From the IMG/VR virus record IMGVR_UViG_3300033475_000017: a stretch of DNA of 64,000 bases. One strand, 5' to 3'. Shown piece by piece: positions 11,414 through 50,592 of this stretch. The position numbers were made by a program, and so were the translations under genes. Below the pieces are notes generated by a model. The model was not told the DNA's origin, made no database searches, and saw only the letters and a program-made list of their open reading frames with translations. Origin of the DNA: an uncultured virus (IMG/VR IMGVR_UViG_3300033475_000017) (lineage: Duplodnaviria; Heunggongvirae; Uroviricota; Caudoviricetes). The number at the start of each line of letters is the position of its first letter. Position 1 is the stretch's first letter.

Positions 11414-11878
11414 CTAAAACGGAATGTCGGCCATATACCAGAGCGATTGGCCGCCCTCGGTGGTGAAGCGGTTGAACGTGGCGGTCTTCGGTTCCCGAAT
11501 GAACGCCCGCACGGCAGCCTTTGCATCATCGATCGAAGTGGCTTCGACCAAGCAACTCATGCCATGCGTCGGCTTTTCAGCCCACATACTCAGGTCTGCC
11601 GCGCAAGGAAGTTTCGCCGCGCCGAGCCCGTCCGACGTCACCTGATACAGCCGGTCCAGGATCGCATCGTGCGCGTAGATAGCGACCGGCGGCCTGGCGG
11701 GCTCGACCTCGGGAAATTCGGTGTCCATCTCGGGCGGCGGCGTGATGTCGACCAGCCGATAACCGTTGTCGTTCCAGTCATCCAGCACATCGATCAACTG
11801 GCCGGTGCTGACGTCGATGCCTACCCGCGCGAACAATTCGTTCAGGTAGCGCATTGCCTTCAATGTGGGTTTGTCCAT
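11414..11878 (-). CDS. Hypothetical protein ending in -DIPF
   Basis: In-operon ORF. Confidence 0.6.
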   Translation of the reverse strand: MDKPTLKAMRYLNELFARVGIDVSTGQLIDVLDDWNDNGYRLVDITPPPEMDTEFPEVEPARPPVAIYAHDAILDRLYQVTSDGLGAAKLPCAADLSMWAEKPTHGMSCLVEATSIDDAKAAVRAFIREPKTATFNRFTTEGGQSLWYMADIPF

Positions 11879-22440: not shown

Positions 22441-22603
22441 CTCGCTGCCTCCGATTGGGTTGCGGCGCAGCATTACAGCGTGTCCGGTGCCTGGGTTATG
22501 TCGGGTCGATTTCCGTTTGTGGCGCTGGTGAAACCTCTGTTGCGTGATTGGACACAGGCAAACTCAAGGGAAAACCTCGCGTGGCAAACCGGGAAGGAAA
22601 ACC

Positions 22604-23068
22604 ATGGCAGACGATGCAGCCTCATGGACGATCAAATCAATGCCGATCGAGACGCGGCAACGCGCGGTGAAGGCCGCACATGCCCAGGATCAGACCATGG
22701 CCGAATGGATGGTCGACGCGGTAAACCGACTGGCAGACCAGCAGGCAGGAAACCAGGTCATACCGCCTGGCAAACCGGATCCCCAGCGGCGCGCGGCCGA
22801 GCTGCCGGACATAGACCTGCAGGGCCTGGCGAACGCCATCAGCGCCACCGTGGGAGCGATCCAGGCGGCAGGTGGCAAGCCACCGCTATCACTCGGCCGT
22901 GACGCATCGGCGACGCTACGGCTCTACATGCGAGCTGCGCGCGGCCTCCCCGAAAAGGAAAAGGGTCAAGGTCGGCGCCCCGGCAAACTTATCGGCCAAA
23001 ATGGGCAAACCGACCTCGAAAACAGGCAAACCTGGAGGGGCGTGCTGGTCGAAGAAGGCCAGGAGTAG
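22604..23068 (+). CDS. Putative ribbon-helix-helix DNA-binding protein
   Basis: 'WTIKSMP.ETR..A..AA....QTM.EW...AV'. Confidence 0.6.
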   Translation: MADDAASWTIKSMPIETRQRAVKAAHAQDQTMAEWMVDAVNRLADQQAGNQVIPPGKPDPQRRAAELPDIDLQGLANAISATVGAIQAAGGKPPLSLGRDASATLRLYMRAARGLPEKEKGQGRRPGKLIGQNGQTDLENRQTWRGVLVEEGQE

Positions 23069-23144: not shown

Positions 23145-23630
23145 GGCCGACTCGATCTGGAAAATCGACTCGGCCGGGACCGGATCTCCGTGCGGGCGGA
23201 TCGGTCCCAGATGGGTGACACCGAAGCTATACGCTCCGAGTCGCCCGTTCAATCCCCCCAAAGCCCCAGCCGTGCCTAACGATCGCGCGAGCGGTCGATC
23301 CCTCATGTCGTCTTGCGCATTGGCGGGGCAGGGGGGCGAGAAAACCGGGGAACCGTGTAAGCTGCTGGTTCTAGACCCCGGGCGCTGCGACTGAGCTGGG
23401 AACGGCTAGGCCCCACGGCGTGAACCACCGGACGCACGAGCTATCGCCTGGCGCCTGCCCGTAGCAGGCCGCGCCAGTACGCTCGCCGGTCATACCAGGG
23501 GGCTCAGGCACAGCCGGTGCGTCCGGCCAAGGCTCGACCGCAATGGGGCCCGGCTCGGCTTGGGGACTCACCGGTCAGTAGCCCGTAAGGCATTGGCGAA
23601 GGCCGTGCCCAATGCGGACTGCTGACCACT
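23145..23630 (+). ncRNA. Candidate large structured non-coding RNA (~490 nt)
   Basis: Consecutive and nested stems, G-U pairs on the + strand, GCGA tetraloop, no credible ORF between convergent genes. Confidence 0.6.
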
Positions 23631-23640
23631 CCGAAACCCT

Positions 23641-23745
23641 CTCAACTTGAAGACTGACTGTTTTTCTTCTTCCCTTAAAATTAATATATTTAATAAAGCG
23701 TCTTCTTAATCTCTTTAGCCCTCTGGATACTTACTTCAATCACTG
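23641..23745. other. AT-rich tract (candidate unwinding element or origin)
   Basis: TTTTTCTTCTTCCCTTAAAATTAATATATTTAATAAAG in a GC-rich genome. Confidence 0.5.
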
Positions 23746-23752
23746 ACCTTGG

Positions 23753-23777
23753 AAGCCTCCCTATTACGGGAGGCTTT
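23753..23777. terminator. Hairpin AAGCCTCCC-TATTAC-GGGAGGCTT, probable terminator
   Basis: 9-bp perfect stem just past the stop of the leftward operon. Confidence 0.65.
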
Positions 23778-23787
23778 CTCTGGCCGA

Positions 23788-23949
23788 TCAGCTTTTCAGC
23801 CTCTCGCAAATGCGATCCAACGCAGCCGCAATCGCGAAGCTCGCGGCAGCCTGGGCAAAACTGGCTGCAGCTTCTTCGGAGCCAGCCCGCTGCGACAGTG
23901 CGATCATGGCGTCTGCCATTTCGCTCAGTGTGGCAGTTTCTAATGCCAT
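23788..23949 (-). CDS. Small hypothetical protein (53 aa, not in ORF track)
   Basis: MALETATLSEMADAM...CERLKS; start coupled to upstream stop. Confidence 0.5.
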   Translation of the reverse strand: MALETATLSEMADAMIALSQRAGSEEAAASFAQAAASFAIAAALDRICERLKS

Positions 23950-26789: not shown

Positions 26790-27311
26790 TCAGTTATGCT
26801 CGGCGGCAGGCGTGGTGTCGGTTACGGCTTCAACGGGCGAGCGGAACGGCCGCAGCCTGCGGGCGTGCCAGGTGCGCTTGCTGACGTCGCTGGCGTCCCG
26901 CATCTCGATCACCACACCGAAGCTGCGCTGCATCTGCAGGATGTACTTCTGCGAGAACGTCCAGCCCGTCACGACGCGCATTTCCTCGAGCGTCGCACCC
27001 CGCTTGCGCATCATCAGCCGCACGGCCTGCCCGCTCTTGCTGTCCCAATCCACGTCGGTCTTCGCCGGCGGGTCGATGCAGGTGATTGCAGCGCCAGCGC
27101 CCGAGCTGATGATGATGCGGGCGCCGATGCTCTTGGCGTAAGGCCTGGCGAAAGACCGGGCGGCCTCGATGCTCTCGAAATGCCCGTCGATTTTGAGCGA
27201 GAAGCCGGGCGGCATCGTTGCTGCACCGGTCCCGTGGACCCAATCGGCGATTTCTGCGACCTGTGCTTTGCGACTCATGGTGTGGGTGCTCTCCTTAAGC
27301 GCGTTGGACAT
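26790..27311 (-). CDS. DUF3489-like winged-helix protein (paralog 1)
   Basis: 'SKSGQA..LMMR..GAT.EEM...TGW'. Confidence 0.65.
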   Translation of the reverse strand: MSNALKESTHTMSRKAQVAEIADWVHGTGAATMPPGFSLKIDGHFESIEAARSFARPYAKSIGARIIISSGAGAAITCIDPPAKTDVDWDSKSGQAVRLMMRKRGATLEEMRVVTGWTFSQKYILQMQRSFGVVIEMRDASDVSKRTWHARRLRPFRSPVEAVTDTTPAAEHN

Positions 27312-27350
27312 GCCATTGCCCCCGATAACCTGGTGCGGCCCGAGTGTGCT

Positions 27351-27398
27351 TGTTGACATTGCGTAAACAATTCACGCACTGTGCGTTGAAAGTCAACA
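27351..27398. promoter_or_regulatory. Divergent promoter region: TGTTGACA...ACGCACTGTGCGT...GTCAACA
   Basis: Same architecture as 26711-26753, located at a strand switch. Confidence 0.7.
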
Positions 27399-27417: not shown

Positions 27418-28368
27418 ATGCGGGCCGATCCTGCGACCATATCGAGGGCCATCCGGAGGTTCGATGACGCCGCTGACAGCTACGCCCGCAGCGTCATGCA
27501 GGTGGCTGATTTGTTGGCGATCGAGGGCGCGAATATTCCGTCGGTCGCGCGGTTGGCCCGACAGCTCCGCTCGCAGACCGAACACTTTCGTGCCAGCGTC
27601 TGGCCAGAACGTGAAGGGGTCCAGTAATGACCACCGATGTCCGAGACACGCTGCGCGGCCTGCAGCTCGGCGGGTCAGCAACCATCCACCTGGCCGGGTC
27701 GCTGCGCCAGCAGGATCGGGCATACATGGCAGTCAACACGGCCGCCTACCGCATGCTGGGCAGCGGCAGGTACACGCTGCACCGGCTGTCTGACCCACCA
27801 CGGGTCATAATCACCCATGCCGTCCAGCCCCGTCACTATTCGGTCGACCGGGACCGCATCAACAACATGCTCGCCGAAGGAATGATCCCGTGAAGATTAT
27901 CGTGCCCAACGAACTGATCGTGACCACCTATGAAGAGGCGCACGCGAACATGCGCCGCTACATCATGGCCGGATACGATGCCGCCCGCCAGCTCGCCGAA
28001 GAGATGGCGACTCGCATCGAGCAGGGGCGAATCGCTCCGATCGACGGCGCCGGCGCGCTGCGCCTCATGGTCGAGGTCATGCAGATATCGGCCGAGCCCG
28101 TGCCCAACATGCCCGTCGTGGTGGTGGACTTCCCGAACGATAATGTTGCGAAATCGACCCACTGACAGGGACACCGACAATGATGAGCACCCGCCCTGAA
28201 GTAAATGTCGTCCCGCACCCCGAATGGCCCAACGTCTGGGTTGTTGAGCATGTCGACGCTGACGGAGACGGCGGAATAGCCGTTACAATATTCGAGGGAT
28301 GCGAGCCGAAAGAGCGCGCTGAGAATTATGCTGCGCTGCTGCGGGCGGCCCCGTTGCTTCCCACCTGA
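27418..28368 (+). other. Operon of four small hypothetical ORFs (27418-27627, 27627-27893, 27890-28165, 28180-28368)
   Basis: Coupled stop/start junctions. Confidence 0.6.
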
Positions 28369-28373
28369 AACAA

Positions 28374-28533
28374 GTCGGCCCCCGGATTGACTCCGAGGGC
28401 CGACAAGTGCCAGTCTCCTGGCGTTGCGCAATCCCCGGTTCCCGTCGGGGTTAGAGCGCGGATCAGGGTCTCACGTGCGAGGAAAGCCCCGATCGATCGA
28501 TGGACTGGACCGTAACTGATCCATTTCATCGAT
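28374..28533 (+). ncRNA. Candidate structured intergenic RNA (five consecutive hairpins)
   Basis: GTCGGCCC/GGGCCGAC, GCCA/TGGC, GCGC-AATCCCC/GGGGTT-GCGC, GATC/GATC, ATCGATG/CATCGAT stems. Confidence 0.4.
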
Positions 28534-28783
28534 GCAACACCCCACCATTCCGCGCACAGTGCGAGGTCGTGAATGCTGGGTGACATGATTTTATGGGTTC
28601 GGCGATGAAACAAGCGACCAAGCCCCATCTCTTGGTGATGGCTGGTGTGCTGTTCGGCCTCGCTTGTGGTGCGATACTGGCATCGCTCATCGGCCCACCG
28701 GCATCCCCGGTTGGCACGCCCATGTGTTTGTTCTTCAGCAGTGCGGTCACGTTGGCCTATGCGCGTCCATGGAGGCGTCGCAT

Positions 28784-30825
28784 ATGAAGCAGGCCGTTCG
28801 CACCAGGCGCACATCAGCCGCAGCCGCCGAGCTGGTGGCCCGCATTCATGCCGATCGCCGGCTCACACTCGGGCCCGCCGACATCAAATGGTTCCTGCGC
28901 AAGCACGAGCCCCACACCATGCCAGTCGAGACGATCGAAGGCCCGCCGTGCATGATCATCGTCCGATCTGCTATGCCCGTGTCACGTGCCGCCCAGGCGC
29001 TGTTCGAGCGCGTCGCGCCCATCGGCATGAGGCTCTGTTTCGTTAGGGGGAAGCATGTCTGACGAAATCACCGGCCGGCCGTTGGTGGATATCATCGCCG
29101 AAGCGCGGCAGATGCAGGTGACGGGTCAATATATCAACGGCGGCATATTCCACGCGATGGCCGACGAAATCACCCGCTTGCGCGCGTGGATCACCGCGAT
29201 CGGAGAGCTGCCCGACGTCGACGCCGATAATCGCGACTGGATGGCGCGCTGTGCCCTCGATGGAGATCCCGCACCATGAAGGCGCCCCCCGATTATTACG
29301 GCGAAGGCCTGCGCCTCTTCGTCGGCCATCCCTCCTGCACCAACCCAGAGCTGGCCGCCGCCATCTATGCCCAGATCGTGGAGCGGATCGCCGACAGGCT
29401 GAACCGGAGCCACATCGACCAAGTGCTGTACCGCTCCGATATCGTGGACCAGGTTAACCGGACCATGCGCGACATCGAACGGGACCGGATGGCATGAGCG
29501 GCACCCTGCCCATCCGCTCCTGCCGTCGGTGCGGCTGCACCGATGACGATTGCTCCATGTGCATCGCGCGCACCGGCCGGGCCTGTTACTGGGTCGAGCA
29601 GGATCTGTGCAGCGCCTGCCAACAGGATCGCCAAACAGGCTGGAATATTCTGCGCCAGCGCATGGCCCAAGGTCGGATCGAGTTCCCGTCGAACGATGCC
29701 CTGCGCACCAGCCTGATCGGCAGAGGCGACGTCGTGTCGGTCGATGAATTCGACACATTCACCCCAGAGCAGTTGCGCGCCGTCATGCGCCGGGACAAGA
29801 CCTGATGCCCAGCAAATGGCACCACGGCACCCAGAAGGGCCAGCCCTGCATGACGTGCGGCAGCAAGCGCGAGCGGGTCACCATCGTTGACGGCCTCCTG
29901 CCGGATGGCGCACCCAACGTGAAATTCTTCTGCGGCAATAAATGCGCAGCCGCCGGCGGGTATCCATGGGCTGGCCTGCCCTCACGCTATCAGCCACAGA
30001 AGGCGGATGCAGCATGATCTGGACAGAGCAGGATGACACACTGCTGATTTTCTACGGGCACTGCCTCAATCAGGCGTTCGGCGGCGCACCAAAGGGCTAC
30101 GAGCACGTTGCGCAGTATGATCTGCACTGCCCTGCGGATGAGGCTATCGCGCGAGTGGCCTTATTGCGGCAGGAACGTCCTGGCTGGGTCAAAGCGCTTG
30201 AGTGGGAGGCCGATCAGGAGCCAGAAGAGAGGCCCCAGCGGCGCCGGAAGAAGGGCTTGCATTAGATGTCCAACCGAAATTGGGACAAAGCCCGCGCCAT
30301 CGATCGAGCACGTAAGCCCTCGTCGGAACCCGTTGTGCATTTCGCTGCACCGGATCCCGACAGGACGCCGTTCCCGATCGTCTATGCCCGCTATGCCAAT
30401 GCGGAAAAGCGCGCCGGCCGCAAGCCGCTACCGCCCAGGCAATGGATCGCATCGTTGAAGCAGAACAACACGAGGCGCACCTGATGCCAGAGGTCAACCC
30501 GATCACCGGCAAGCCGTTTCAGTTCCAGCCCCGCAAGCGCAAGCGCGGGAAATCGCCTGGCGGCACACAGGTCATTCGCCCGCACGTTCGCGAGATCAAA
30601 CCCGGCTCCGTCAAACCTCCAGCCAATCTCGTTGCCCAGGTCGCGCGGCATATCGCTGGCGACACATCCGGCTTTCGCACAGATTGGCCCCCGCAACTCA
30701 TAGCAACCGCCGCAAGCCATATGCGGGCCTCCCATTACGTTGGTCTCGAAAATCGTGGCAGCGCCTGGGTCAAGCGCACCATCGAGCGGATCGACAAGAT
30801 ATCGAAGCAGTCAGCCAAACCCTGA
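28784..30825 (+). other. Operon of eight small hypothetical ORFs (28784-29062, 29055-29279, 29276-29497, 29494-29805, 29805-30017, 30014-30265, 30266-30484, 30484-30825)
   Basis: Overlapping ATGA/TGATG junctions; 29494 ORF carries 'CRRCGCTD..C...C.WV..DLCSAC'. Confidence 0.65.
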
Positions 30826-31166
30826 CCGCGATCCCGTGTGCGCGCCTACCAAAGCGCACCGGCCGGGCTTTCTAAACGCAGCAACCGCCCGGTGGTAACA
30901 CCCGCCGTGCACCGATGCTCCGACCAGCCTGCGTGACGGGCAACTGCAAACCGGGGAGAGAAACCGCCGGTGAAGACCCGCCACACCATGCGACCGCATG
31001 GCCGAAAATCCACCAAACGACCAGCTTATTCCAACCACGCCCAAATTCTGGGGAACCATTTAAGGAGGGGCGCACATAGACCTGTGCGCAGCACGCCGTA
31101 TCGCCTCCATCCAGCGCGTCAGCGCGTGGCGATCTCTTCCAACCTCAACGCCACCACCATCTAGCC

Positions 31167-31579
31167 AACCCTCCCACCAGACCGACCAGCCACACACAGG
31201 CGCGCACGCGCGCTCGCCGACAACAACCCGCATCAGCCGATACAGGCCGATCCACGATCGAAACCCTCCACAAACCAGGGCAGACGATCGAATTTATCAA
31301 TCGAAAACCTCCCACACCACGCAATCGCGGACGCCAGTTCGCGAGTGCCGCGAGGTCCAGCGGCGCGGTAGCCGCTGGTCGGCGTCAGCCGAAACCCTCC
31401 AGCAGAAACACATGCGCAGCATCCGAAAACCTCCCGCAATATCAGCGCGCAAACCCTCCCCGAAAACCTCCACGATCAGCGCTGAACCCTCCCCAGCGCT
31501 TCAAACCCTCCAGCTTGCGAATTTGCGCAATTACGCAAACTCAACCCTCCATGATCAGCCATTCAATCAAAACCTCCCC
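31167..31579 (+). repeat. Eleven dispersed direct repeats AA(A/C)CCTCC in a C/A-rich non-coding tract
   Basis: Copies near 31167, 31261, 31304, 31392, 31426, 31451, 31463, 31485, 31503, 31543, 31569. Confidence 0.8.
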
Positions 31580-31884
31580 AATCAATCGGAATTTCCGATC
31601 AACGATCGATCGACCCGCTCTATCAGCTATCCCCAATTCAACATCGGAGAAACCAATCAATCGACCAACACTGATCGGAAATGTGAATTGGTCCCGTGGC
31701 TTCTCTCTCATCCCATGAGGCAATCCAAAAACACGCTCGTCATCACCGGGACGCTGAGACGGCAAACCGCGGGCAAACCAGCCGCCGAAACGGGCAAACC
31801 TGACCGTGAAGCAGCCGACTGGCACGGTACCCACGTGCGCGGGCGCGAAATCGCGGCGGATCGCAGCGCCGGCGTCGGGCGCGG

Positions 31885-32526
31885 CTATGTCGGGCGGCAG
31901 ATGCGGCTGATCGCGTCCAGCGAAAGGTTCAGCTTCAGAGCGGCCTTGATCGCGCGCAGCGACTCGCCTGAGGCGTGGCGCATCCTTATGCGCTCGCACA
32001 TGGCTTGCTGCTGATCATCGGGGTGCAGCATGCCAGCGACCACGCGATAGCCGAACGGAACCTTGCCACCCAGATAGGCCCCCCGCGCTCGCTGGTCTGC
32101 TTTGACGTCAAGTATGCGCTCGCGTGTCCGATCGCGCTCGGCTTCAGCCACGGCTGCCAGGATGGCGAATACCAGCTTGCCTATGCCGTTCCCCGTCACG
32201 TCGCCGCCGAGATCGATCATGTGCAGCGCTATGCCAGCGGTCTGCAGGTCCGACAGGACTGCGAGTGCGTCCAGCGAAGATCGAAACATGCGGTCTAGTT
32301 TTGCGGTCAGGATGATGTCGCCACGTCGCACGCAAGCTAGGAGGCTGGCACCTTCGGGCCGCTGGCCAAGTGGGACGGATCCCGATACGCCACGGTCAAC
32401 GAAATCGGTGTCGACCTTCCATCCTTTCATCAGCGCATAGCCTGCCATCATGCGGTGCTGAACATCCAGGCTTTCACCATCGTCAGCCTGGCGTGCGGTG
32501 CTGACGCGAGCATACGTGTAAATCAT
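31885..32526 (-). CDS. Serine recombinase (resolvase/invertase family)
   Basis: 'YARVST..Q', 'D.GVSG', 'RP', 'KLDRMFRS', 'AEAER...RER'. Confidence 0.92.
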   Translation of the reverse strand: MIYTYARVSTARQADDGESLDVQHRMMAGYALMKGWKVDTDFVDRGVSGSVPLGQRPEGASLLACVRRGDIILTAKLDRMFRSSLDALAVLSDLQTAGIALHMIDLGGDVTGNGIGKLVFAILAAVAEAERDRTRERILDVKADQRARGAYLGGKVPFGYRVVAGMLHPDDQQQAMCERIRMRHASGESLRAIKAALKLNLSLDAISRICRPT

Positions 32527-33902: not shown

Positions 33903-34607
33903 TCAGGCGGCTTGCGCGGCTTCCTCGCGTTCGGCGGCTTCCTCCGCTTCGGCATCGTCCACATGCGCCACCGTATCGGCGATCGTGGCATGCCATGTGC
34001 GCTTTGTGCGCGCGGTGGCTTCATGCGTGGTAATGGCCACGCCAAAGGACCGCATGAGCTGGGCGACGTATTTCTTGCCGAAGGTCCACCCCGTGATCTC
34101 TTTCATCTCATCCATGGTGGCGCCCTCTTCCCTCATCATGAGTTTGATGGCTTGGCCAGACTTTGATCCCCAATCAGCGCCACGCGGGCCGTTGGACACT
34201 GCAGCCGATTTGTCGCCACCGCGCCCGCGCTTGGCAGGGGGATCAAAGCAACGCACGGGTGCGCCGCTGGCATCAATGATGCAGACCTGCATCCCCAACG
34301 CTTTGGCGAATGTGCCAGCGAACATGCCAGCGGCGAGCAACGAGTCATACTGGCCAGCAATGGCCAGCGTGTAGGACTCGGGGAGTTGCTGCAGGACGTC
34401 CTGATCAGCTTCGGCGCGCAGCTCGGCGAGCGATGGCACACGCGGCGCAGGTGGCGCAGGTGGCGCGGCATCGGCCGGCGCTGCGGGGGCCAGTGCGTCA
34501 ACCATGGCAGCAACGTCAATGGACGTGTCCACCAGCGTGGTCAGGTCGACCGTTTCAACAACGGGTGTGGGAACGACTGTCAGCTTGGGAGCGGCTTTGC
34601 GGGCCAT
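33903..34607 (-). CDS. DUF3489-like winged-helix protein (paralog 2)
   Basis: 'WGSKSGQAIKLMMREEGATMDEMKEITGWTF'. Confidence 0.65.
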   Translation of the reverse strand: MARKAAPKLTVVPTPVVETVDLTTLVDTSIDVAAMVDALAPAAPADAAPPAPPAPRVPSLAELRAEADQDVLQQLPESYTLAIAGQYDSLLAAGMFAGTFAKALGMQVCIIDASGAPVRCFDPPAKRGRGGDKSAAVSNGPRGADWGSKSGQAIKLMMREEGATMDEMKEITGWTFGKKYVAQLMRSFGVAITTHEATARTKRTWHATIADTVAHVDDAEAEEAAEREEAAQAA

Positions 34608-35046
34608 GTGTAAGCATCCTCTTGCTTGTCCGGCGCTGCACAACGCTGCGCCTGACGAAACAACTAGCGCACCGTGCGTGACGATGCAAGGGTGAAATGC
34701 TGACAATCTGCATTTTCTTTTCCGGCCGGTCGGGCTGGCACGATGCACCAGGCAATGTCAGCCACTACACGAGGCGATGCCAGCATAGAGGTCGAGCATG
34801 GTCACCATGCATGATCGCACGCGATGGGGGGGCACCTTTGCTGGGAGGAAACCCGCCCGCTCACTCTCCGATCCCCAATCTGTAGCGCCAAAAAAATCGG
34901 CGAAAATTTAATATGCGGGAATTTATTTTCCGAGAAGAAGAGTGATTGAGTTCTATCGAAGGGCGATTTAGCCCGCGCGGCGGTGATGCAGGTAATGGTT
35001 TGGATTGTTACCCGAATTTGGCCCGCACGATGCTTGACGGGAACTG

Positions 35047-35718
35047 TTGCGCGTCGGTGATGTGTCGTGCATGGTGCGTGGAATGATTGGTTTCGGGGAA
35101 GTTTTGATGTTGAGCTTCAAAGCGATGACTGCGGCGAAATTGCTGATCCACGCTGGCGCGGCGCGATCGATTGTGGGGGACGGACATGGACAGGGGCATG
35201 TCGTGGCTGCTGCGGCTGCTGGTGCGCCGGTTTCTGTTGCGCCGGGGGTTCCTGGGGCGTCGGATGAGGTTCGGGGTTCGGCGCCGGCTGACGCGGGCGG
35301 CGGTTCGGCGGTGGTGGCCGAAGTGACTATGCGCTGCCCGCGCTGCCGTGGCGCTGGGCGCCTGCCGGTCGATGAGCCTGAATGCAACGGAATGGCCACT
35401 TCGGCCGAGTGCGAGCGATGCGGCGGGTCTGGCGTGGAGAAGCGCACGGCGGCTGATCCGGAGCTGGAAGCGGTGCTGAAATCGACGTCGCTGGATCTGC
35501 TGCGCAGTGTCGGCGCGGCGCGGGGCATCACGGTGCAGCGGACGGGCGACGGCTCCGACGGTGACGTTCTGGCGCTGCAGTGGGCGAGCGAGTGGACGGC
35601 GACCATCCGGCATGATGACCAGGCCACCGAGTTGCAGTTCGGGCCATATGTCTCCGAAGACATGGCGTGGCGTGTGGCGCTGGCCCACACGAACAGGCTG
35701 CGTCAGGGCCTGGTCTGA
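35047..35718 (+). CDS. Hypothetical protein with a DnaJ-like CxxCxGxG pair (true start uncertain, likely downstream)
   Basis: CPRCRGAG and CERCGGSG. Confidence 0.55.
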   Translation: MRVGDVSCMVRGMIGFGEVLMLSFKAMTAAKLLIHAGAARSIVGDGHGQGHVVAAAAAGAPVSVAPGVPGASDEVRGSAPADAGGGSAVVAEVTMRCPRCRGAGRLPVDEPECNGMATSAECERCGGSGVEKRTAADPELEAVLKSTSLDLLRSVGAARGITVQRTGDGSDGDVLALQWASEWTATIRHDDQATELQFGPYVSEDMAWRVALAHTNRLRQGLV

Positions 35719-35894
35719 TGCCCGCTGCCGCGCCCGACCAGCTCTACCGCTGGTATTGGCGTTCGCGCATGCCGGAACGGCACGGGTCGCTGTGCCATGT
35801 TCTGGCGCGGGGCGCGCTCAATTCTGTTCTGGTCCGGTTTGTCGATGATGGGTGGACCGTCGTGACTTCGCGCTATGCGGTGAGGAAAGCATGA
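35718..35894 (+). CDS. Small conserved phage protein
   Basis: 'PER.G..C.VLARG.LNS.LV.F.DG..VVTSR.AVR'. Confidence 0.65.
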   Translation: MPAAAPDQLYRWYWRSRMPERHGSLCHVLARGALNSVLVRFVDDGWTVVTSRYAVRKA

Positions 35895-36763
35895 CCCTGC
35901 CAGAAATCACTGCGGCGATGCCGCTTCTGCCTGTCGGGCGTATCGGCAAGCTGTCGACCAGCCTGCGGCGGGACCGGATGAATTCGGACGGCACGTATGA
36001 GCCGACCCCGTATGATGTAACCTGCGCCGAAACGAAGCTGGAAGACCTGTGGAAGCAGGATCAGGCTGACCATGCCGCGAACGCGGCGGCGATCGAGCAC
36101 AACAGAGCGCTGAGGGCTACGTTGACCGAGATCATGAAGGCCGCGGGCATACCGGACAGTTACAGCGAGCGGGACCACAAGAGCCGGTCGCGGTTTCCGA
36201 AGTCGATCCGTCGCGATGCGGGCTACCTGGGAGACTTGCAGCGGCATATTCCGATCAGCGACGGGTTTTCTGGCCTGTCGTTGACGTATGATCGGCTGAA
36301 AGCGGCTTACGCGGAGCACCGGAAGGTGGCCGACGCGCGCCAAGCGGCTCAGAAACGGAAAGCGGATGCCGCGATCGAGCGGCGCAAGGCCGACATGGAA
36401 CTGGCCATCCTGCTGGTGCGCTACGAGCTGCCGCCGGAAAGCGACTGGTCGGACGTGCTGGGCGTGGTTCGCAAGCGGAACCAGTATCTGGATCTCGCCA
36501 TCGCGATGGAAGACTGCCGCGGCGACTGGTCCGAAGGCTGTTACATGGTCGAAGCGGCGCTGGATCGGTTCACGATCACTGACGACAGAGACAAAGAGAT
36601 CGCGACCGACGCTGCAAGCGGTATCGCCAGTTTCGGTGATGGTTGCGGCGATGGGCGCGTGTTCCGCGATACTCGTTGGAGCTACGACGCGCTGTATGCG
36701 CTGATCGTTGACCAACAGCTTGTGGCCGATGCTCGGCGCGCACGGGAAGGGGCTCGCCGATGA
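35891..36763 (+). CDS. Hypothetical protein
   Basis: Long ORF with RBS and coupled junctions. Confidence 0.7.
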   Translation: MTLPEITAAMPLLPVGRIGKLSTSLRRDRMNSDGTYEPTPYDVTCAETKLEDLWKQDQADHAANAAAIEHNRALRATLTEIMKAAGIPDSYSERDHKSRSRFPKSIRRDAGYLGDLQRHIPISDGFSGLSLTYDRLKAAYAEHRKVADARQAAQKRKADAAIERRKADMELAILLVRYELPPESDWSDVLGVVRKRNQYLDLAIAMEDCRGDWSEGCYMVEAALDRFTITDDRDKEIATDAASGIASFGDGCGDGRVFRDTRWSYDALYALIVDQQLVADARRAREGARR

Positions 36764-41506: not shown

Positions 41507-41974
41507 GTGACAGCGAAGGGTGCGCCCAAAGAGGCGAAACAGCGGTGGCGAGCATCAGCCAAGAAGCGGATGGCCGAGCACCAGCCGACCGCCGAGACGC
41601 GGAATTCCGTCAAGGCGCTCTGCTACCTGAAAACCGATCCCGCGATCATCGCCAAGCTGCTGAACATCAGCAAAATGGTTCTCGAAAAGAAATACCGGGA
41701 TGAGCTGAAGTACGGCGCGGCACTGGTCGCGGCCGCACTCGGAATGAAGATCGTTGAATCTGCCGTCAAGGGCGACAAGGGCGCGCTCGGCCAGATCGCA
41801 AGAGCCCAAGGCATCGGCCGCCAGGAACCGGCACCACCACCGAGGGCGAAAGACGATGAAAAAGAACCCCCGCCCCTCGATCTCGCGAACGCCAGCGATG
41901 ACGATCTCGCTCGAATCCTTGCAGCGCTGGCCAGCGGAACGCCGAGCGGCACTGATCGGGGTCATAAAGGCTGA
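41507..41974 (+). CDS. Probable terminase small subunit
   Basis: HTH 'IAKLLNIS...L.KKYR.EL..G'; directly upstream of the large terminase. Confidence 0.7.
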   Translation: MTAKGAPKEAKQRWRASAKKRMAEHQPTAETRNSVKALCYLKTDPAIIAKLLNISKMVLEKKYRDELKYGAALVAAALGMKIVESAVKGDKGALGQIARAQGIGRQEPAPPPRAKDDEKEPPPLDLANASDDDLARILAALASGTPSGTDRGHKG

Positions 41975-43547
41975 GGTCGACCGGCGGCGCACCGGTGTCC
42001 TGTGGGTGCCATTTCCGGATCCCGAACCAGGCCGGATGCACCCCCAACGGATGGCGCTGGAAAGCGAAGCGGACATTCTGTTTTACGGCGGTGCCGCCGG
42101 CGGCGGAAAATCGGATCTGCTGATCGGCTGCGCACTGACCCGCCACCGCACCGCGCTGATCTTCCGCCGGCAAGATCCGCAGCTCGCCGGCCTGCAGGAG
42201 CGCGCGGAACACATCATCGGCGAGGGCAAGGGCCGGTTCAACCAGAAGCACAACCGCTGGCGCATGAACGACGGCAAGATCCTTCGATTTGGCTCGATGG
42301 ACAAAGAGCAGGACTGGAAGAAATACCAGGGCCGCGCCCACGATTACATGGGCTTTGACGAAATCACCCACTTCACCGAAGAGCAATTCCGTTCGGTGTC
42401 CGGCTGGGCGCGTCCGGCCAACGGATCGCTGAATGACCGCCAGCGGGTGCGCGTCATCTGTGCCGGGAACCCGCCGACGGACGCGATAGGTTTCTGGGTC
42501 ATCGAGTTCTGGGCACCGTGGCTGGACGACAAGCACCCGAACCCCGCCAAGGATGGCGAGCTGCGCTGGTACGTGACGATCGACGGAAAGGACATCGAGG
42601 TTCCGGACAGCACACCATACGCGCACTTCGACCAGCGGCTTGGCCGGGAAGAGATGATCCAGCCCAAGAGCCGGACATTCATTCGCTCACTGGTGACCGA
42701 CAACCCGATTCTGATGGCGAACGGCTACATGGCGACGCTGCAGGGCATGCAGGAGCCGTTGCGCAGCCAGATGCTGTATGGGGACTTTAGAATCGGCCAG
42801 AACGACGCCGAAGACCAGATCATCCCGTCAGCGTGGGTAGAGGCCGCCATGGCGCGCTGGCACGACCCGATGAGCAACGAGCCGCCGAAGCCTGGCCAGA
42901 TCAGCCCTCGCGATGAGGAAAGCGGCAAGATAGATCCGCTGGATGCTATCGGGGTGGACGTCGCCCGCGGCGGCAAAGACAAGACCGTGCTCACGCCGCG
43001 GCACGGCACCTGGTTCGGCCGGCAGAAGACATATCCTGGAACGGCCACGCCAGATGGCCCGAAAGTCGTGGGCTTCATCGTCGGGATGATCCCGACCGGC
43101 GATGACCCACAGGTCAAGATCGACATCATCGGCGTCGGCAGCAGCCCGTTCGACTTCGCCAAGGCCAACGCCCTGGACGCTTACGCGATGAACGGCAAGC
43201 GGCGCTCGCTCGCGCGGACCAAGGGCGGCAAGCTGAAGTTCGCGAACATGCGGGCGCAATGGTGGTGGCAGCTACGCGAAGGCCTGGACCCGGCCGTGCC
43301 GCCGGAAGAGGCGTTGGCGATCCCCCCCGACCGCGAATTGCTCGCTGACCTGACGTCGGCCCGGTACCAGGTGCTGGTGCAGGGCATCCAGGTCGAAGAT
43401 AAGGCCGACATCATCGAGCGGATCGGCCGTTCGCCAGACAAGGGCGAATCGTTAGTGTATGCACACGGTCAGCCGCGCAAGCCGACCGCGCTGCATCCTG
43501 AGATGCCGAATACCTATTCACCACCGATCGCGATCTATCAGAGGTAG
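41898..43547 (+). CDS. terL: Terminase large subunit
   Basis: Walker A 'YGGAAGGGKS', Walker B 'GFDE', 'GNP', nuclease 'GVDVARGG.D', 'SPD.G'. Confidence 0.93.
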   Translation: MTISLESLQRWPAERRAALIGVIKAEVDRRRTGVLWVPFPDPEPGRMHPQRMALESEADILFYGGAAGGGKSDLLIGCALTRHRTALIFRRQDPQLAGLQERAEHIIGEGKGRFNQKHNRWRMNDGKILRFGSMDKEQDWKKYQGRAHDYMGFDEITHFTEEQFRSVSGWARPANGSLNDRQRVRVICAGNPPTDAIGFWVIEFWAPWLDDKHPNPAKDGELRWYVTIDGKDIEVPDSTPYAHFDQRLGREEMIQPKSRTFIRSLVTDNPILMANGYMATLQGMQEPLRSQMLYGDFRIGQNDAEDQIIPSAWVEAAMARWHDPMSNEPPKPGQISPRDEESGKIDPLDAIGVDVARGGKDKTVLTPRHGTWFGRQKTYPGTATPDGPKVVGFIVGMIPTGDDPQVKIDIIGVGSSPFDFAKANALDAYAMNGKRRSLARTKGGKLKFANMRAQWWWQLREGLDPAVPPEEALAIPPDRELLADLTSARYQVLVQGIQVEDKADIIERIGRSPDKGESLVYAHGQPRKPTALHPEMPNTYSPPIAIYQR

Positions 43548-48957: not shown

Positions 48958-49218
48958 TCTCACATTCATATTGATCCGTCCGCTTTTTTACACTAGTGGG
49001 CGGATTGAGACAGGTTCTCCGCGCTGCTAAGTCGGTCTACGGCGAAGTGCAGATGGGTAGATCCCCGGCGCCCGCGACGGCCACCAAGAGCCGAATGTGC
49101 GGGCCGCGACTTGGATGGCCGCGATAATTCATCCCTCTGAGGCAGGTTCCTCCGCTGTCCCGCGGCTCGCAGCCGACGTCGGGAAAATTCTCCCCTTCAG
49201 CGGATGGAGCCCAGCCCG

Positions 49219-50592
49219 ATGGCCGGTCAGTTCACGAGTTTTCCCGCGGCATTGCAGGCCGAACTGCAGACCGGCTTCCTGGAGCGCGAGTTTGAAGAGG
49301 GCTTGGACTCGGTCCTAGCCTATCGCCGCGAATCCCTGATGGAGACGGTGCCGGCCCGAATCGGTGAAACGCTGACCCGCACCCGCACGGGCCGCAAGGC
49401 GCCGAACACGAACACCATCAATCCGAGCACCAACACCGGCCTCGACAACGGCATGACGCCGAGCGATGCCACGTTGGAGCAATACCAGCTCTCGCTGTTC
49501 CAGTATGGCGACAGCTCCGACGTCGACCTGATGGGCGACCTGGCCACCATCGCCAACAACCTGACCCGCATCGCGCGCAATAACGGTGTGCAGGCGGCGC
49601 AGTCGATGGAGCGGTTGGCCCGCAAGGCGCTGTTCAGCGCCTACATGGGCGGCAACTCGCGCGTCCGCACCGACCTGGGTGCGTCGACCACGACAAGCTG
49701 CCATGTGGACGACATTCGCGGCTTCCAGCAGGTGCTGGTCAACGGTGTCCCAACCCCGGTGTCCGGAGTCGCCACGCTGACGGTCTTCGAGACCGCGATC
49801 GGCGCCGGCGGTGTCGGCCAGACGCTGACGGTGACCGGCGCGGCGGCCGATGGGACCGACAACTCTTCGGTGCCCGACGGCATCAGCGGCGTGCTGACGT
49901 TCCAGGCGGCGACGGCACCGGTGAACGGCGATGCGCTGATCGCCATCAACGCGCCGAAGATGCTGCGGCCCTACAGCAAATCCACCACGGCGCAGCTCAC
50001 CGGCAGCGACATCCTGACCATGGGCATCCTGCTGGATGGGGTCAGCTACCTGCGCGACAACGCGGTGCCCACCATGCCGGACGGCACCTATCACGTCGCC
50101 CTGGACAACACTTCGCTGCGGCAGCTCTACGCCGATCAGGACTTCAAGGTGCTGTTCGCCGGCCGGTCGCAGTCTGGCGAATACCGGGATGCGGACATTG
50201 CCGATCTGCTGGGTGTGAAGTTCATTCCCACCACGGAAACGTATGTGCAGCAGGCTGGTTCCTCGGGTGCGACGGGCGTCAGCGCCAACAATGTGCGCGT
50301 GCGCCGGATCATCATCATGGGGTCCGAGCATCTGATCCAGGGCAACTTCGAGGGCCTGTCCATGTGGCTGGAGCGCCAGGGCGTGAACGCCTTCGGCGAA
50401 GTGTTCCTGGTCAACAACGTGGCGCACATCATCCGGCCGCCCCTCGATCGGCTGCAGCAGTTCGCCAGCTTGTCGTGGACCTGGATCGGGTGCTTTGCGG
50501 CGCCGACCGATGCGACCGCCACCACAACGATCATCCCCACGGCGAGCAATTCGCTGTATAAGCGCAGCCTGGTCATCGAGACGGCCGGCTAA
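49219..50592 (+). CDS. Major capsid protein (N4-gp56-like HK97 fold)
   Basis: Follows scaffold; 'GETLT.TR.G', 'QYG', 'DRLQQ....W' motifs; size. Confidence 0.8.
   Translation: MAGQFTSFPAALQAELQTGFLEREFEEGLDSVLAYRRESLMETVPARIGETLTRTRTGRKAPNTNTINPSTNTGLDNGMTPSDATLEQYQLSLFQYGDSSDVDLMGDLATIANNLTRIARNNGVQAAQSMERLARKALFSAYMGGNSRVRTDLGASTTTSCHVDDIRGFQQVLVNGVPTPVSGVATLTVFETAIGAGGVGQTLTVTGAAADGTDNSSVPDGISGVLTFQAATAPVNGDALIAINAPKMLRPYSKSTTAQLTGSDILTMGILLDGVSYLRDNAVPTMPDGTYHVALDNTSLRQLYADQDFKVLFAGRSQSGEYRDADIADLLGVKFIPTTETYVQQAGSSGATGVSANNVRVRRIIIMGSEHLIQGNFEGLSMWLERQGVNAFGEVFLVNNVAHIIRPPLDRLQQFASLSWTWIGCFAAPTDATATTTIIPTASNSLYKRSLVIETAG

What the first reader, a model, noticed from the sequence alone, without database searches (positions are those of the whole stretch)
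31100..31700. Eleven-copy AA(A/C)CCTCC array in a strand-skewed non-coding tract
Seen: about 11 same-strand, irregularly spaced copies in a C/A-rich, G-poor stretch between convergent operons, with AATCAATCG/CGATC motifs interspersed. On + the core is CCUCC (anti-Shine-Dalgarno); on - it is GGAGG. Known: alphaproteobacterial 'cuckoo' sRNAs use repeated CCUCC motifs, and CsrB-type sponges use repeated GGA. Iterons and terminase-binding sites are also short direct repeats. Inference: a multivalent RNA sponge for RBSs, ribosomes or a protein, or a DNA iteron/packaging array.
Basis: partly seen in the sequence, partly recalled or inferred. Interest (0 to 1): 0.7.

Follow-up and report, generated by a model that had tools for sequence, protein, structure and literature searches.

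The report
Orphan CCUCC-motif array in a phage
A roughly 70-kb phage of an alphaproteobacterium carries, in a 1-kb gene-free gap, eleven same-strand copies of a short word containing the ribosome's mRNA-docking sequence; the array is far beyond chance and looks built to be displayed on a single-stranded RNA, but no relative or transcript could be found to show what it does.

Summary
AAMCCTCC occurs 11 times on the + strand at 31167-31577, against 0.07 expected from local composition. Conservation is confined to CGA-AAMCCTCC; flanks and spacings (12-95 bp) vary.

The array lies in a 1.06-kb non-coding gap between convergent operons of a circular ~70-kb myophage contig. It is the most C-over-G-skewed stretch of that genome.

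My best reading (0.35) is a + strand untranslated RNA tail that shows its CCUCC cores single-stranded. Predicted unpaired probability is 0.64-0.72 on +, against 0.07 for GGAGG on -, and 0.49 for spacer shuffles of the same composition. It would act as a multivalent anti-Shine-Dalgarno mimic, and probably also as a Rho loading zone.

It is not a cuckoo/CcsR RNA:
- no CCUCCUCCC word;
- only one motif in a hairpin loop;
- no Rfam hit.

It is not a CsrB-type sponge: CsrA was found in 0 of 21 genomes of the host genus.

A DNA-level binding array (0.25) is not excluded. It has an AT-rich neighbour, but no helical phasing, no initiator or partition gene, and no DnaA box.

No homologous array, relative or sequencing run was found. 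The scan has flagged other anti-SD-like arrays on unrelated DNA before.

The parts
30826..31884 (.). 1.06-kb non-coding gap between convergent operons
   Evidence: The + ORF chain ends at 30825 and the - strand recombinase ORF ends at 31885. No codon-position GC periodicity at about 30700-31850. No ORF in the gap passes the GC3/GC1>GC2 filter.
31167..31577 (+). Array of 11 AAMCCTCC words (7 AACCCTCC, 4 AAACCTCC); starts 31167, 31262, 31305, 31393, 31427, 31452, 31464, 31485, 31504, 31543, 31570
   Evidence: Information content is confined to about 11 positions. Spacings are 95, 43, 88, 34, 25, 12, 21, 19, 39 and 27.
31064..31108 (+). 5' boundary structure: GGAGG (31064-68) predicted to pair with CCUCC (31104-08) around hairpin 31070-31089
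   Evidence: Fold of 31040-31110. Its z-score is only -1.4, so this is a prediction, not a finding.
31330..31386 (+). GC-rich structured island (outer stem plus two hairpins) inside the array
   Evidence: Present in both the MFE and the centroid of the + strand fold.
31478..31500 (+). 7-bp hairpin with the motif (AACCCUCCC) as its 9-nt loop; the only copy displayed cuckoo-style
31521..31700 (.). AT-rich tract overlapping and following the last two copies; holds palindrome 31585-31599, inverted repeat 31591-31601/31672-31682 and CCAATCAATCG twice
   Evidence: GC 0.45-0.47, the second- to fourth-lowest GC of the 70-kb genome depending on window size. Repeats.
31761..31800 (+). Three GGCAAACC words (spacing 11 and 21) between the array and the recombinase stop
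   Evidence: 9 of the window's 16 GGCAAAC copies fall in two clusters, this one and 22557-23031.
31724..31764 (-). Possible weak intrinsic terminator of the leftward operon (hairpin then U5)
   Evidence: Fold of 31715-31800 on the - strand. The consensus scanner did not call it.
30442..30825 (+). Last ORF of the rightward small-gene operon (27418-30825), 127 aa, no family
   Evidence: Moderate coding periodicity.
31885..32526 (-). Small serine recombinase (about 213 aa from the internal Met), last gene of the leftward operon
   Evidence: Pfam Resolvase 3.4e-29; PHROG integrase/invertase.

Best explanation
The array is a functional, sequence-specific and strand-specific element of a ~70-kb alphaproteobacterial myophage, and it most likely works as RNA on the + strand.

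Proposed mechanism. Transcription of the rightward operon of small genes (27418-30825) runs into a ~1-kb untranslated, C/A-rich tail. In that tail, eleven AAMCCUCC words (plus a twelfth CCUCC) are held single-stranded between a few GC-rich hairpins. Each word carries the anti-Shine-Dalgarno core. The RNA would therefore be a multivalent mimic of the mRNA-docking end of 16S rRNA.

It could pair with GGAGG-type ribosome-binding sites. In this phage those concentrate in the leftward gene cluster at 16-26 kb, and they are also expected on host mRNAs. Alternatively it could soak up a factor that reads this sequence, and so tune translation during infection. The same naked C-rich RNA should also load Rho and stop rightward transcription before it meets the convergent recombinase operon.

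Shown: the motif statistics, the strand, the lack of coding, the compositional extreme and the predicted accessibility. Inferred: that the tract is transcribed, that it pairs or binds, and any effect.
For: 1. 11 copies against 0.066 expected locally.
2. Information is confined to about 11 positions while flanks are random and spacing runs from 12 to 95 bp. This argues for selection on the word itself, not decay of a tandem duplication.
3. Spacings are not multiples of 3 and codon periodicity is absent.
4. All copies lie on one strand, in the most C-over-G-skewed 400 bp of the genome.
5. CCUCC cores on + have a predicted mean unpaired probability of 0.64 (all 5-mers of the tract: 0.30). GGAGG on - scores 0.07.
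6. With motifs fixed and spacers shuffled at the same composition, the mean is 0.49 +/- 0.09 against 0.715 observed (1 of 100 shuffles reaches it). Embedded in other window DNA the mean is 0.33 (0 of 100).
7. A hairpin plus U5 at about 31724-31764 on the - strand could end leftward transcripts before the array.
8. Of 18 RBS-like GGAGG sites outside the array, 12 serve - strand genes between 16.4 and 26.2 kb. These give concrete candidate targets. By my start calls, no gene of the array-bearing operon has GGAGG in the 21 nt before its start. The two + strand RBS-like GGAGG sites that one search lists inside that operon (27455, 28771) precede other, possibly internal, ORFs.
9. The Rho RNA-binding domain is present in 19 of 20 other genomes of the host genus.
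10. Phage-encoded RNA sponges have precedent: AsxR and AgvB, as cited in PMC12559287 (passages read).
Against: - There is no evidence of transcription. No sigma-70-like promoter was found upstream, even with relaxed rules. No terminator follows the array on +.
- A naked C-rich RNA may be cut short by Rho before or inside the array.
- No related array exists to show conservation.
- The invariant AA and the preferred CGA prefix are not needed for SD pairing and point to some other reader.
- No GGAGGKTT complement occurs elsewhere in the window.
- Accessibility is a thermodynamic prediction with a modest margin (about 2.7 sd).
- Windows were flagged because they contain CCTCC, so the anti-SD identity may be a selection effect. 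Earlier scan notes include look-alike arrays judged to be plain minisatellites.
Confidence: 0.35

Rival explanations
1. DNA-level binding array: the words are sites for a sequence-specific DNA-binding protein (replication initiator, segregation or silencing protein, or transcription roadblock), with the adjacent AT-rich tract as the region that melts or bends.
For: Short same-orientation direct repeats are the classic form of iterons and centromere-like sites (textbook knowledge). The AT-rich tract at 31521-31700, overlapping the last two copies and running on past the array, is among the 2-4 lowest-GC stretches of the genome. It carries palindromes and GATC clusters. The conserved word is about 11 bp, one helical turn. 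A second word, GGCAAACC, occurs three times at helical-turn spacings (11 and 21) next to the array and again around an RHH-like ORF at 22605-23068. Two DUF3489-like proteins (a domain I recall as winged-helix; weak, below Pfam cut-off) sit at both divergent promoters.
Against: There is no helical phasing (Rayleigh p 0.16-0.28) and spacing runs from 12 to 95 bp. No initiator, helicase loader, ParA/ParM-type or other partition gene was recognised among the 76 different ORFs scanned with PHROGs and/or Pfam. There is no DnaA box with up to 1 mismatch in the gap. Nothing in this reading explains the 1-kb strand skew, the better-than-shuffle exposure of the cores on one strand, or why the word should contain CCTCC. 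TerL is 10 kb away, which argues against a pac site.
Confidence: 0.25
2. Purely a Rho-dependent termination and insulation zone: the C-rich, G-poor untranslated tract loads Rho on rightward transcripts at the convergent junction, and the repeated word is just an efficient YC-rich unit.
For: It has the most negative GC skew of the genome. It is untranslated. No intrinsic terminator was detected on +. The + strand is predicted to be weakly structured. Rho is present in 19 of 20 other genomes of the genus. The position at a convergent junction fits.
Against: As far as I recall, Rho needs no fixed word. This does not explain an invariant 8-11-nt motif with invariant As in 11 copies against 0.07 expected, nor a tract five to ten times longer than a rut site. 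Rho was not found in this MAG itself (85.8% complete).
Confidence: 0.15
3. The - strand is the active one: a G/U-rich RNA with eleven GGAGG(K)UUU Shine-Dalgarno-like sites that traps 30S subunits or C-rich-seed sRNAs, or that drives a set of tiny ORFs.
For: GGAGG followed by a U run resembles a strong ribosome-binding site. The leftward recombinase operon points into the array. 6 of 11 sites have ATG/GTG/TTG 4-10 nt downstream.
Against: 6 of 11 is close to the roughly 4.8 expected from composition (own estimate). The ORFs overlap in different frames and show no codon periodicity. The GGAGG cores have a predicted unpaired probability of 0.07. A possible terminator lies before the array. No CsrA was found in the host genus, 0 of 21. 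No clustered CCUCCUCC sRNA-like loci were found in the host MAG.
Confidence: 0.07
4. No function: a chance or mutational by-product (slippage or duplication) in junk DNA between operons.
For: It is an orphan. There is no conservation data. Other anti-SD-like arrays in this scan were judged to be minisatellites.
Against: Spacing is irregular, flanks are unrelated and the core is perfectly kept. That is the opposite of a decaying tandem repeat. 0 of 5000 local shuffles exceed 2 copies.
Confidence: 0.08

Closest known systems
Cuckoo / CcsR1-4 / alpha-r14 sRNAs of Alphaproteobacteria (PMC4615179, passages read)
   Same: The host is alphaproteobacterial. Multiple copies of a C-rich, anti-SD-like word lie on one transcript strand, and the word would be expected to occlude ribosome-binding sites.
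   Different: Cuckoo RNAs have 2-4 adjacent 24-50-nt hairpins with CCUCCUCCC in each loop. Here there are 11 copies of AAMCCUCC, no CCUCCUCCC, mostly in unstructured linkers over 410 nt, on a phage, with no Rfam hit.
CsrB/RsmZ-type multivalent protein sponges
   Same: Many copies of a short word spaced irregularly between hairpins; a multivalent titration logic.
   Different: These sponges bind CsrA through GGA. No CsrA was found in the host genus (0 of 21 genomes, which include this MAG and with it the phage contig), and the GGA-bearing strand is predicted to be folded.
Iteron-type replication origins and repeat-type centromeres of plasmids and phages (own knowledge)
   Same: Same-orientation short direct repeats beside an AT-rich tract in a mobile element.
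   Different: The word is shorter, and there is no regular spacing or phasing. No cognate Rep or Par gene was recognised nearby. The strong strand skew is unexplained.
Rho utilisation (rut) regions (own knowledge)
   Same: A long C>G, poorly structured, untranslated RNA downstream of an operon.
   Different: As I recall, rut sites have no fixed repeated word and are about 80 nt long, not 400-1000.
Phage-encoded anti-sRNA sponges AsxR/AgvB (cited in PMC12559287; the original paper was not read)
   Same: A phage non-coding RNA acting by base-pair titration.
   Different: By recall, those are short RNAs with a single site aimed at particular sRNAs, not an 11-valent array.

Membership tests
Cuckoo / CcsR / alpha-r14 RNA | Loop motif CCUCCUCCC | tested here: not met
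   0 occurrences of CCTCCTCCC on either strand of the window.
Cuckoo / CcsR / alpha-r14 RNA | 2-4 adjacent hairpins of 24-50 nt, each showing the motif in its loop | tested here: not met
   Only 1 of 11 copies (31485) is the loop of a hairpin. The rest lie in predicted unpaired linkers.
Cuckoo / CcsR / alpha-r14 RNA | Match to the curated covariance model | tested here: not met
   No Rfam hit at gathering score in the window. At E<=10 over 30700-32000 there were only two unrelated chance hits.
CsrB/RsmZ-type sponge | Cognate CsrA/RsmA protein in host or element | tested here: not met
   PF02599 was found in 0 of 21 genomes of the genus, including this MAG with the phage contig. 11 of those genomes are of high quality, and the control genomes gave hits.
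CsrB/RsmZ-type sponge | GGA motifs exposed in loops or linkers | tested here: not met
   - strand GGAGG cores have a mean unpaired probability of 0.07. This is a prediction only.
Iteron origin | Regularly spaced, helically phased direct repeats | tested here: not met
   Spacings are 12-95 bp. Vector strength is 0.34-0.41, Rayleigh p 0.16-0.28.
Iteron origin | Adjacent AT-rich unwinding region | tested here: met
   31521-31700 has GC 0.45-0.47, among the 2-4 lowest of the 70-kb genome.
Iteron origin | Neighbouring initiator gene / DnaA boxes | tested here: inconclusive
   No Rep-like family was found in the flanking ORFs, many of which have no family at all. No DnaA box with up to 1 mismatch lies in the gap.
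Partition centromere | Adjacent ParA/ParM/TubZ NTPase with a centromere-binding protein | tested here: not met
   None was found among the 76 different ORFs scanned. The only ParB-like domain is fused to a DNA methylase beside the terminase gene. 6.2 kb of the genome lies outside the window and was not scanned.
pac/cos terminase site | Lies at or beside the terminase genes; DNA ends map there | tested here: inconclusive
   TerL at 41754-43547 is 10 kb away. Termini are not testable because no sequencing run was listed.
Rho-dependent terminator (rut) | C>G, unstructured, untranslated RNA of at least about 80 nt; Rho present | tested here: met
   Skew is -0.35, the genome minimum. There is no coding periodicity. 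Rho is present in 19 of 20 other genomes of the genus, though not found in this 85.8%-complete MAG. Actual termination is not testable here.
Type III antitoxin (ToxI-like) RNA | Regular tandem repeats of about 34-36 nt next to an endoribonuclease toxin gene (recalled) | tested here: not met
   Spacing is irregular and there is no longer repeat unit. No such toxin family was found in the neighbours.

The most novel reading that the evidence does not exclude
A phage makes a long, deliberately unstructured RNA that carries eleven copies of the 16S rRNA docking sequence. This would be a multivalent 'ribosome-tail decoy'. It could capture strong Shine-Dalgarno sites of host mRNAs and of the phage's own leftward operon to reprogramme translation. 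Or it could soak up a host factor or defence nuclease that recognises the anti-SD tail. No such phage RNA is described in the papers my searches returned.
Probability: 0.15. Interest if true: 0.85.

Novelty: new variant of a known kind. Interest (0 to 1): 0.55.

Why it matters
If the + strand RNA reading is right, this would be a phage-borne, high-valency anti-Shine-Dalgarno RNA. It would be built on a different plan (naked linkers, 11 sites) from the hairpin-loop sRNAs known in Alphaproteobacteria. It would also give a directly testable handle on how a phage might bias translation between weak-SD and strong-SD genes, or blunt factors aimed at the ribosome's 3' tail.

If the DNA reading is right, it defines the site of an unrecognised DNA-binding protein, and possibly the origin, of a phage lineage with no cultured relatives.

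Either way the element is a clean, statistically extreme, orphan motif array. One RNA-seq or pull-down experiment would settle which reading applies.

Tried and rejected
**Similar DNA**
- Phages, plasmids and 40 related genomes gave only chance 25-30-nt hits.

**Pattern scan for three motif copies**
- All I inspected were unrelated:
  - regular tandem or coding repeats;
  - a dispersed 40-nt repeat of an Actinomycetota MAG;
  - 42-nt hairpin modules in a Rhodobacter genome, where the word is in the stem;
  - a viral contig where the word encodes a protein linker.
- These hits were selected by the motif, so they say nothing about homology.

**Relatives by protein**
- DUF932-like neighbour: 6 viral loci at 35-39% identity (5 different contigs after one near-duplicate), and 34 of 300 family genomes at about 45%. 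No array was found.
- ORF 35852-36763: 5 viral contigs at 44-51%. Their skewed regions are coding.
- TerL: only an identical 8.9-kb fragment, 0 of 34 genus genomes, and cultured phages at 44% or less.
- MCP: about 45% identity to a gene found, mostly as one copy, in half of the family's genomes, probably GTA-like.
- Last upstream ORF: nothing in viral contigs, and one weak 38-residue hit in metagenome contigs. An Atlas look-up was uninformative.

**Sequencing runs**
- None was listed and no RNA holder was listed.

**Ideas rejected**
- Chi-like site: the word is under-represented in the host. There are 136 copies on both strands in 6.2 Mb, against about 380 by my base-composition estimate.
- Mirrored array or invertible segment: the opposite-skew tract at 34880-35330 holds no inverted copies. 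The 26-nt inverted repeat 31640-65/35078-103 scores within shuffles.
- GATC cluster as a special feature: GATC is frequent genome-wide.
- tRNA or tmRNA: none found.
- 16S 3' end of the host: not assembled in the MAG.

Full report
**What is there**

The 8-mer AAMCCTCC has 12 exact matches in the window on both strands. Eleven of them lie on the + strand within 411 bp (31167-31577). Window-wide shuffles expect 1.9. Dinucleotide-preserving shuffles of 31100-31700 alone expect 0.066, with a maximum of 2 in 5000. So the C/A-rich composition does not create the array.

I aligned the copies on the motif. Information content is high only for about 11 positions, CGA-AAMCCTCC-(C/A), and near zero in the flanks. 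Start-to-start spacings are 95, 43, 88, 34, 25, 12, 21, 19, 39 and 27. They are neither regular, nor multiples of 3, nor helically phased (Rayleigh p 0.16-0.28).

A perfectly kept core with unrelated flanks is what selection on the word itself produces. It is not what a decaying tandem duplication looks like. A twelfth CCTCC sits at 31104, and one inverted copy (GGAGG on +) at 31064.

**Context**

The window is a rotation of a single contig of a MAG. The first 769 bases of that contig repeat its last 762 at 92.6% identity. The element is therefore a circular or terminally redundant genome of about 70.16 kb with strain variation.

It is a myophage:
- tail sheath and baseplate;
- major capsid and large terminase;
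- RecT/exonuclease and RuvC;
- a GcrA-like protein, which points to an alphaproteobacterial host.

The array lies in a 1.06-kb gap (30826-31884) with no codon periodicity. On its left is a rightward operon of about a dozen small ORFs without known families (27418-30825). On its right is a leftward operon that ends with a small serine recombinase (31885-32526), preceded by a DUF932-like and a DUF3489-like protein.

The array is the most negative GC-skew region of the whole genome (-0.35 over 400 bp). The 31521-31700 tract, which overlaps the last two copies and runs on past the array, is among the two to four lowest-GC stretches.

**Which strand, and DNA or RNA?**

On the + strand the region folds weakly. 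A few GC-rich hairpins (31330-31386, 31478-31500, 31514-31538) are separated by long unpaired linkers that carry the motifs.

| Measure | Value |
|---|---|
| Mean unpaired probability, CCUCC cores on + | 0.64 |
| All 5-mers of the + tract | 0.30 |
| GGAGG cores on the - strand | 0.07 |
| Observed, motifs fixed (31130-31620) | 0.715 |
| Spacers shuffled at the same composition | 0.49 +/- 0.09 (1 of 100 reach observed) |
| Motifs embedded in other DNA of the window | 0.33 +/- 0.10 (0 of 100) |

So both the composition and the arrangement of the spacers keep the cores exposed on the + strand. I weight this as modest evidence for a single-stranded, + sense role. It is a prediction, not a measurement.

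On the - strand, 6 of 11 GGAGG sites have a start codon 4-10 nt downstream, against about 4.8 expected from composition. The resulting ORFs overlap in different frames without periodicity. The sites are therefore not real ribosome-binding sites. A hairpin followed by U5 at about 31724-31764 on the - strand could end the leftward operon before the array.

**What speaks against the RNA reading**

- No promoter-like site precedes the array and no terminator follows it.
- No sequencing run could be listed (see Tried and rejected).
- A naked C-rich RNA is an ideal Rho substrate. Rho is present in 19 of 20 other genomes of the genus, though it was not found in this 85.8%-complete MAG. The transcript might therefore be cut short.
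- I fold this into the model: the tail would double as a Rho loading zone at the convergent junction. Rho alone does not explain an invariant 8-11-nt word.

**The DNA rival**

Same-orientation repeats beside an AT-rich tract with palindromes recall origins and centromere-like sites. A second word, GGCAAACC, occurs three times at 11- and 21-bp spacing at 31761-31800. It occurs six more times around an RHH-like ORF at 22605-23068.

Against this rival:
- There is no phasing.
- No initiator or partition gene was recognised among the 76 different ORFs scanned.
- No DnaA box with up to 1 mismatch lies in the gap.
- The terminase is 10 kb away.
- Nothing in this reading explains the 1-kb skew or the CCTCC core.
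- The word is under-represented in the host: 136 copies on both strands in 6.2 Mb. It is not Chi-like.

**Comparison with known families**

*Cuckoo/CcsR RNAs.* These are defined by 2-4 hairpins of 24-50 nt with CCUCCUCCC in each loop (PMC4615179, passages read). Here that word is absent. One of 11 motifs is in a hairpin loop. Rfam gives no hit at gathering score, and none of relevance at E<=10. The array works like them in principle, but it is not a member.

*CsrB-type sponges.* These need CsrA. PF02599 was found in 0 of 21 genomes of the genus, including this MAG and with it the phage contig.

*Type III antitoxin arrays.* These are regular tandem repeats; this array is not.

**Relatives**

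None carries the array. Details are under Tried and rejected.
- DNA searches, protein-anchored searches in viral, genome and metagenome collections, and a direct pattern scan found only unrelated repeats that share the word by construction.

**Candidate targets**

Of 18 RBS-like GGAGG sites outside the array, 12 serve - strand genes between 16.4 and 26.2 kb. Several share the form GGAGG(G)CTGAMC. By my start calls, the array-bearing operon uses weaker AGGG-type sites, with no GGAGG in the 21 nt before any of its starts. The two + strand GGAGG sites that one search lists inside it (27455, 28771) precede other, possibly internal, ORFs. This makes a testable prediction, but my start-site calls are crude.

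**Verdict**

This is a real, statistically extreme, strand-specific orphan motif array.

| Reading | Confidence |
|---|---|
| + strand untranslated RNA showing a multivalent anti-SD-like word, doubling as a Rho zone | 0.35 |
| DNA-binding array | 0.25 |
| Rho zone only | 0.15 |
| No function | 0.08 |
| - strand RNA | 0.07 |
| Something else | remainder |

Earlier notes of this scan describe other anti-SD-like arrays on unrelated DNA. Some were judged RNA modules and some plain minisatellites. I used them only as a caution about selection bias.

My literature searches returned no description of such a phage array. I saw listings only. I read passages of PMC4615179 and PMC12559287.

Noticed in passing
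window 1-64000 (junction at 11582/11583): The window is a rotation of one MAG contig. The contig's first 769 bases repeat its last 762 at 92.6% identity, so it is a circular or terminally redundant phage genome of about 70.16 kb assembled across two strain variants.
   Followed up: yes
window 22557-23031 and 31761-31800: A second word, GGCAAAC(C), clusters at two places: 9 of the window's 16 copies, all on +. Six lie around an RHH-like ORF (22605-23068), including three at 21-22-bp spacing in its 3' end. Three lie next to the CCTCC array at 11- and 21-bp spacing. It may be an operator of that small protein.
   Followed up: partly
window 34880-35330: This is the most positive GC skew of the genome (+0.33, T over A). 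It lies at the far end of the leftward recombinase operon and mirrors the array's skew. The first ~90 codons of ORF 35047-35718 may be non-coding; the Q-like zinc-finger match starts near residue 91. No inverted copies of the motif were found there.
   Followed up: partly
window 31640-31665 / 35078-35103: A 26-nt imperfect inverted repeat (77%) brackets the 3.4-kb segment that holds the serine recombinase operon and its promoter region. The best local alignment scores within composition shuffles, so it may be chance.
   Followed up: yes
window 18859, 24576, 25533, 26004, 26204 (- strand): Several consecutive leftward genes share an extended ribosome-binding word, GGAGG(G/C)CTGAMC, 7-8 nt before the start. 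This recalls the start-associated sequences of some mycobacteriophages (recalled).
   Followed up: no
window 26790-27359 (-) and 33903-34748 (-): Two ORFs have weak DUF3489 matches below the Pfam cut-off. Each is the first gene leftward of a divergent promoter region.
   Followed up: no
window 23616-23790: This is the lowest-GC stretch of the phage (0.31 over 100 bp). It is followed by a textbook hairpin-plus-T-run terminator whose stem is GGGAGGC/GCCTCCC.
   Followed up: no
window 49204-50592: The major capsid protein is about 45% identical to a gene found, mostly as one copy per genome, in 203 of 400 other genomes of the host family. That pattern is expected of a gene-transfer-agent capsid gene.
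   Followed up: no
L146 and L174 (Rhodobacter sp. KR11): Two loci carry four tandem 42-nt modules. Each is a hairpin with GGGAGGG paired to CCCUCCC, upstream of genes. They look like an unclassified hairpin-module RNA or REP-like element.
   Followed up: no
L057-L135, L150 and others (an uncultured Actinomycetota MAG); L110, L111, L155 (a Streptosporangiaceae MAG): Dozens of dispersed arrays of a ~40-nt unit contain AACCCTCC twice (18/22-nt spacing), sometimes preceded by inverted GGAGGGTTT copies. This is a genome-wide repeat family of unknown nature.
   Followed up: no
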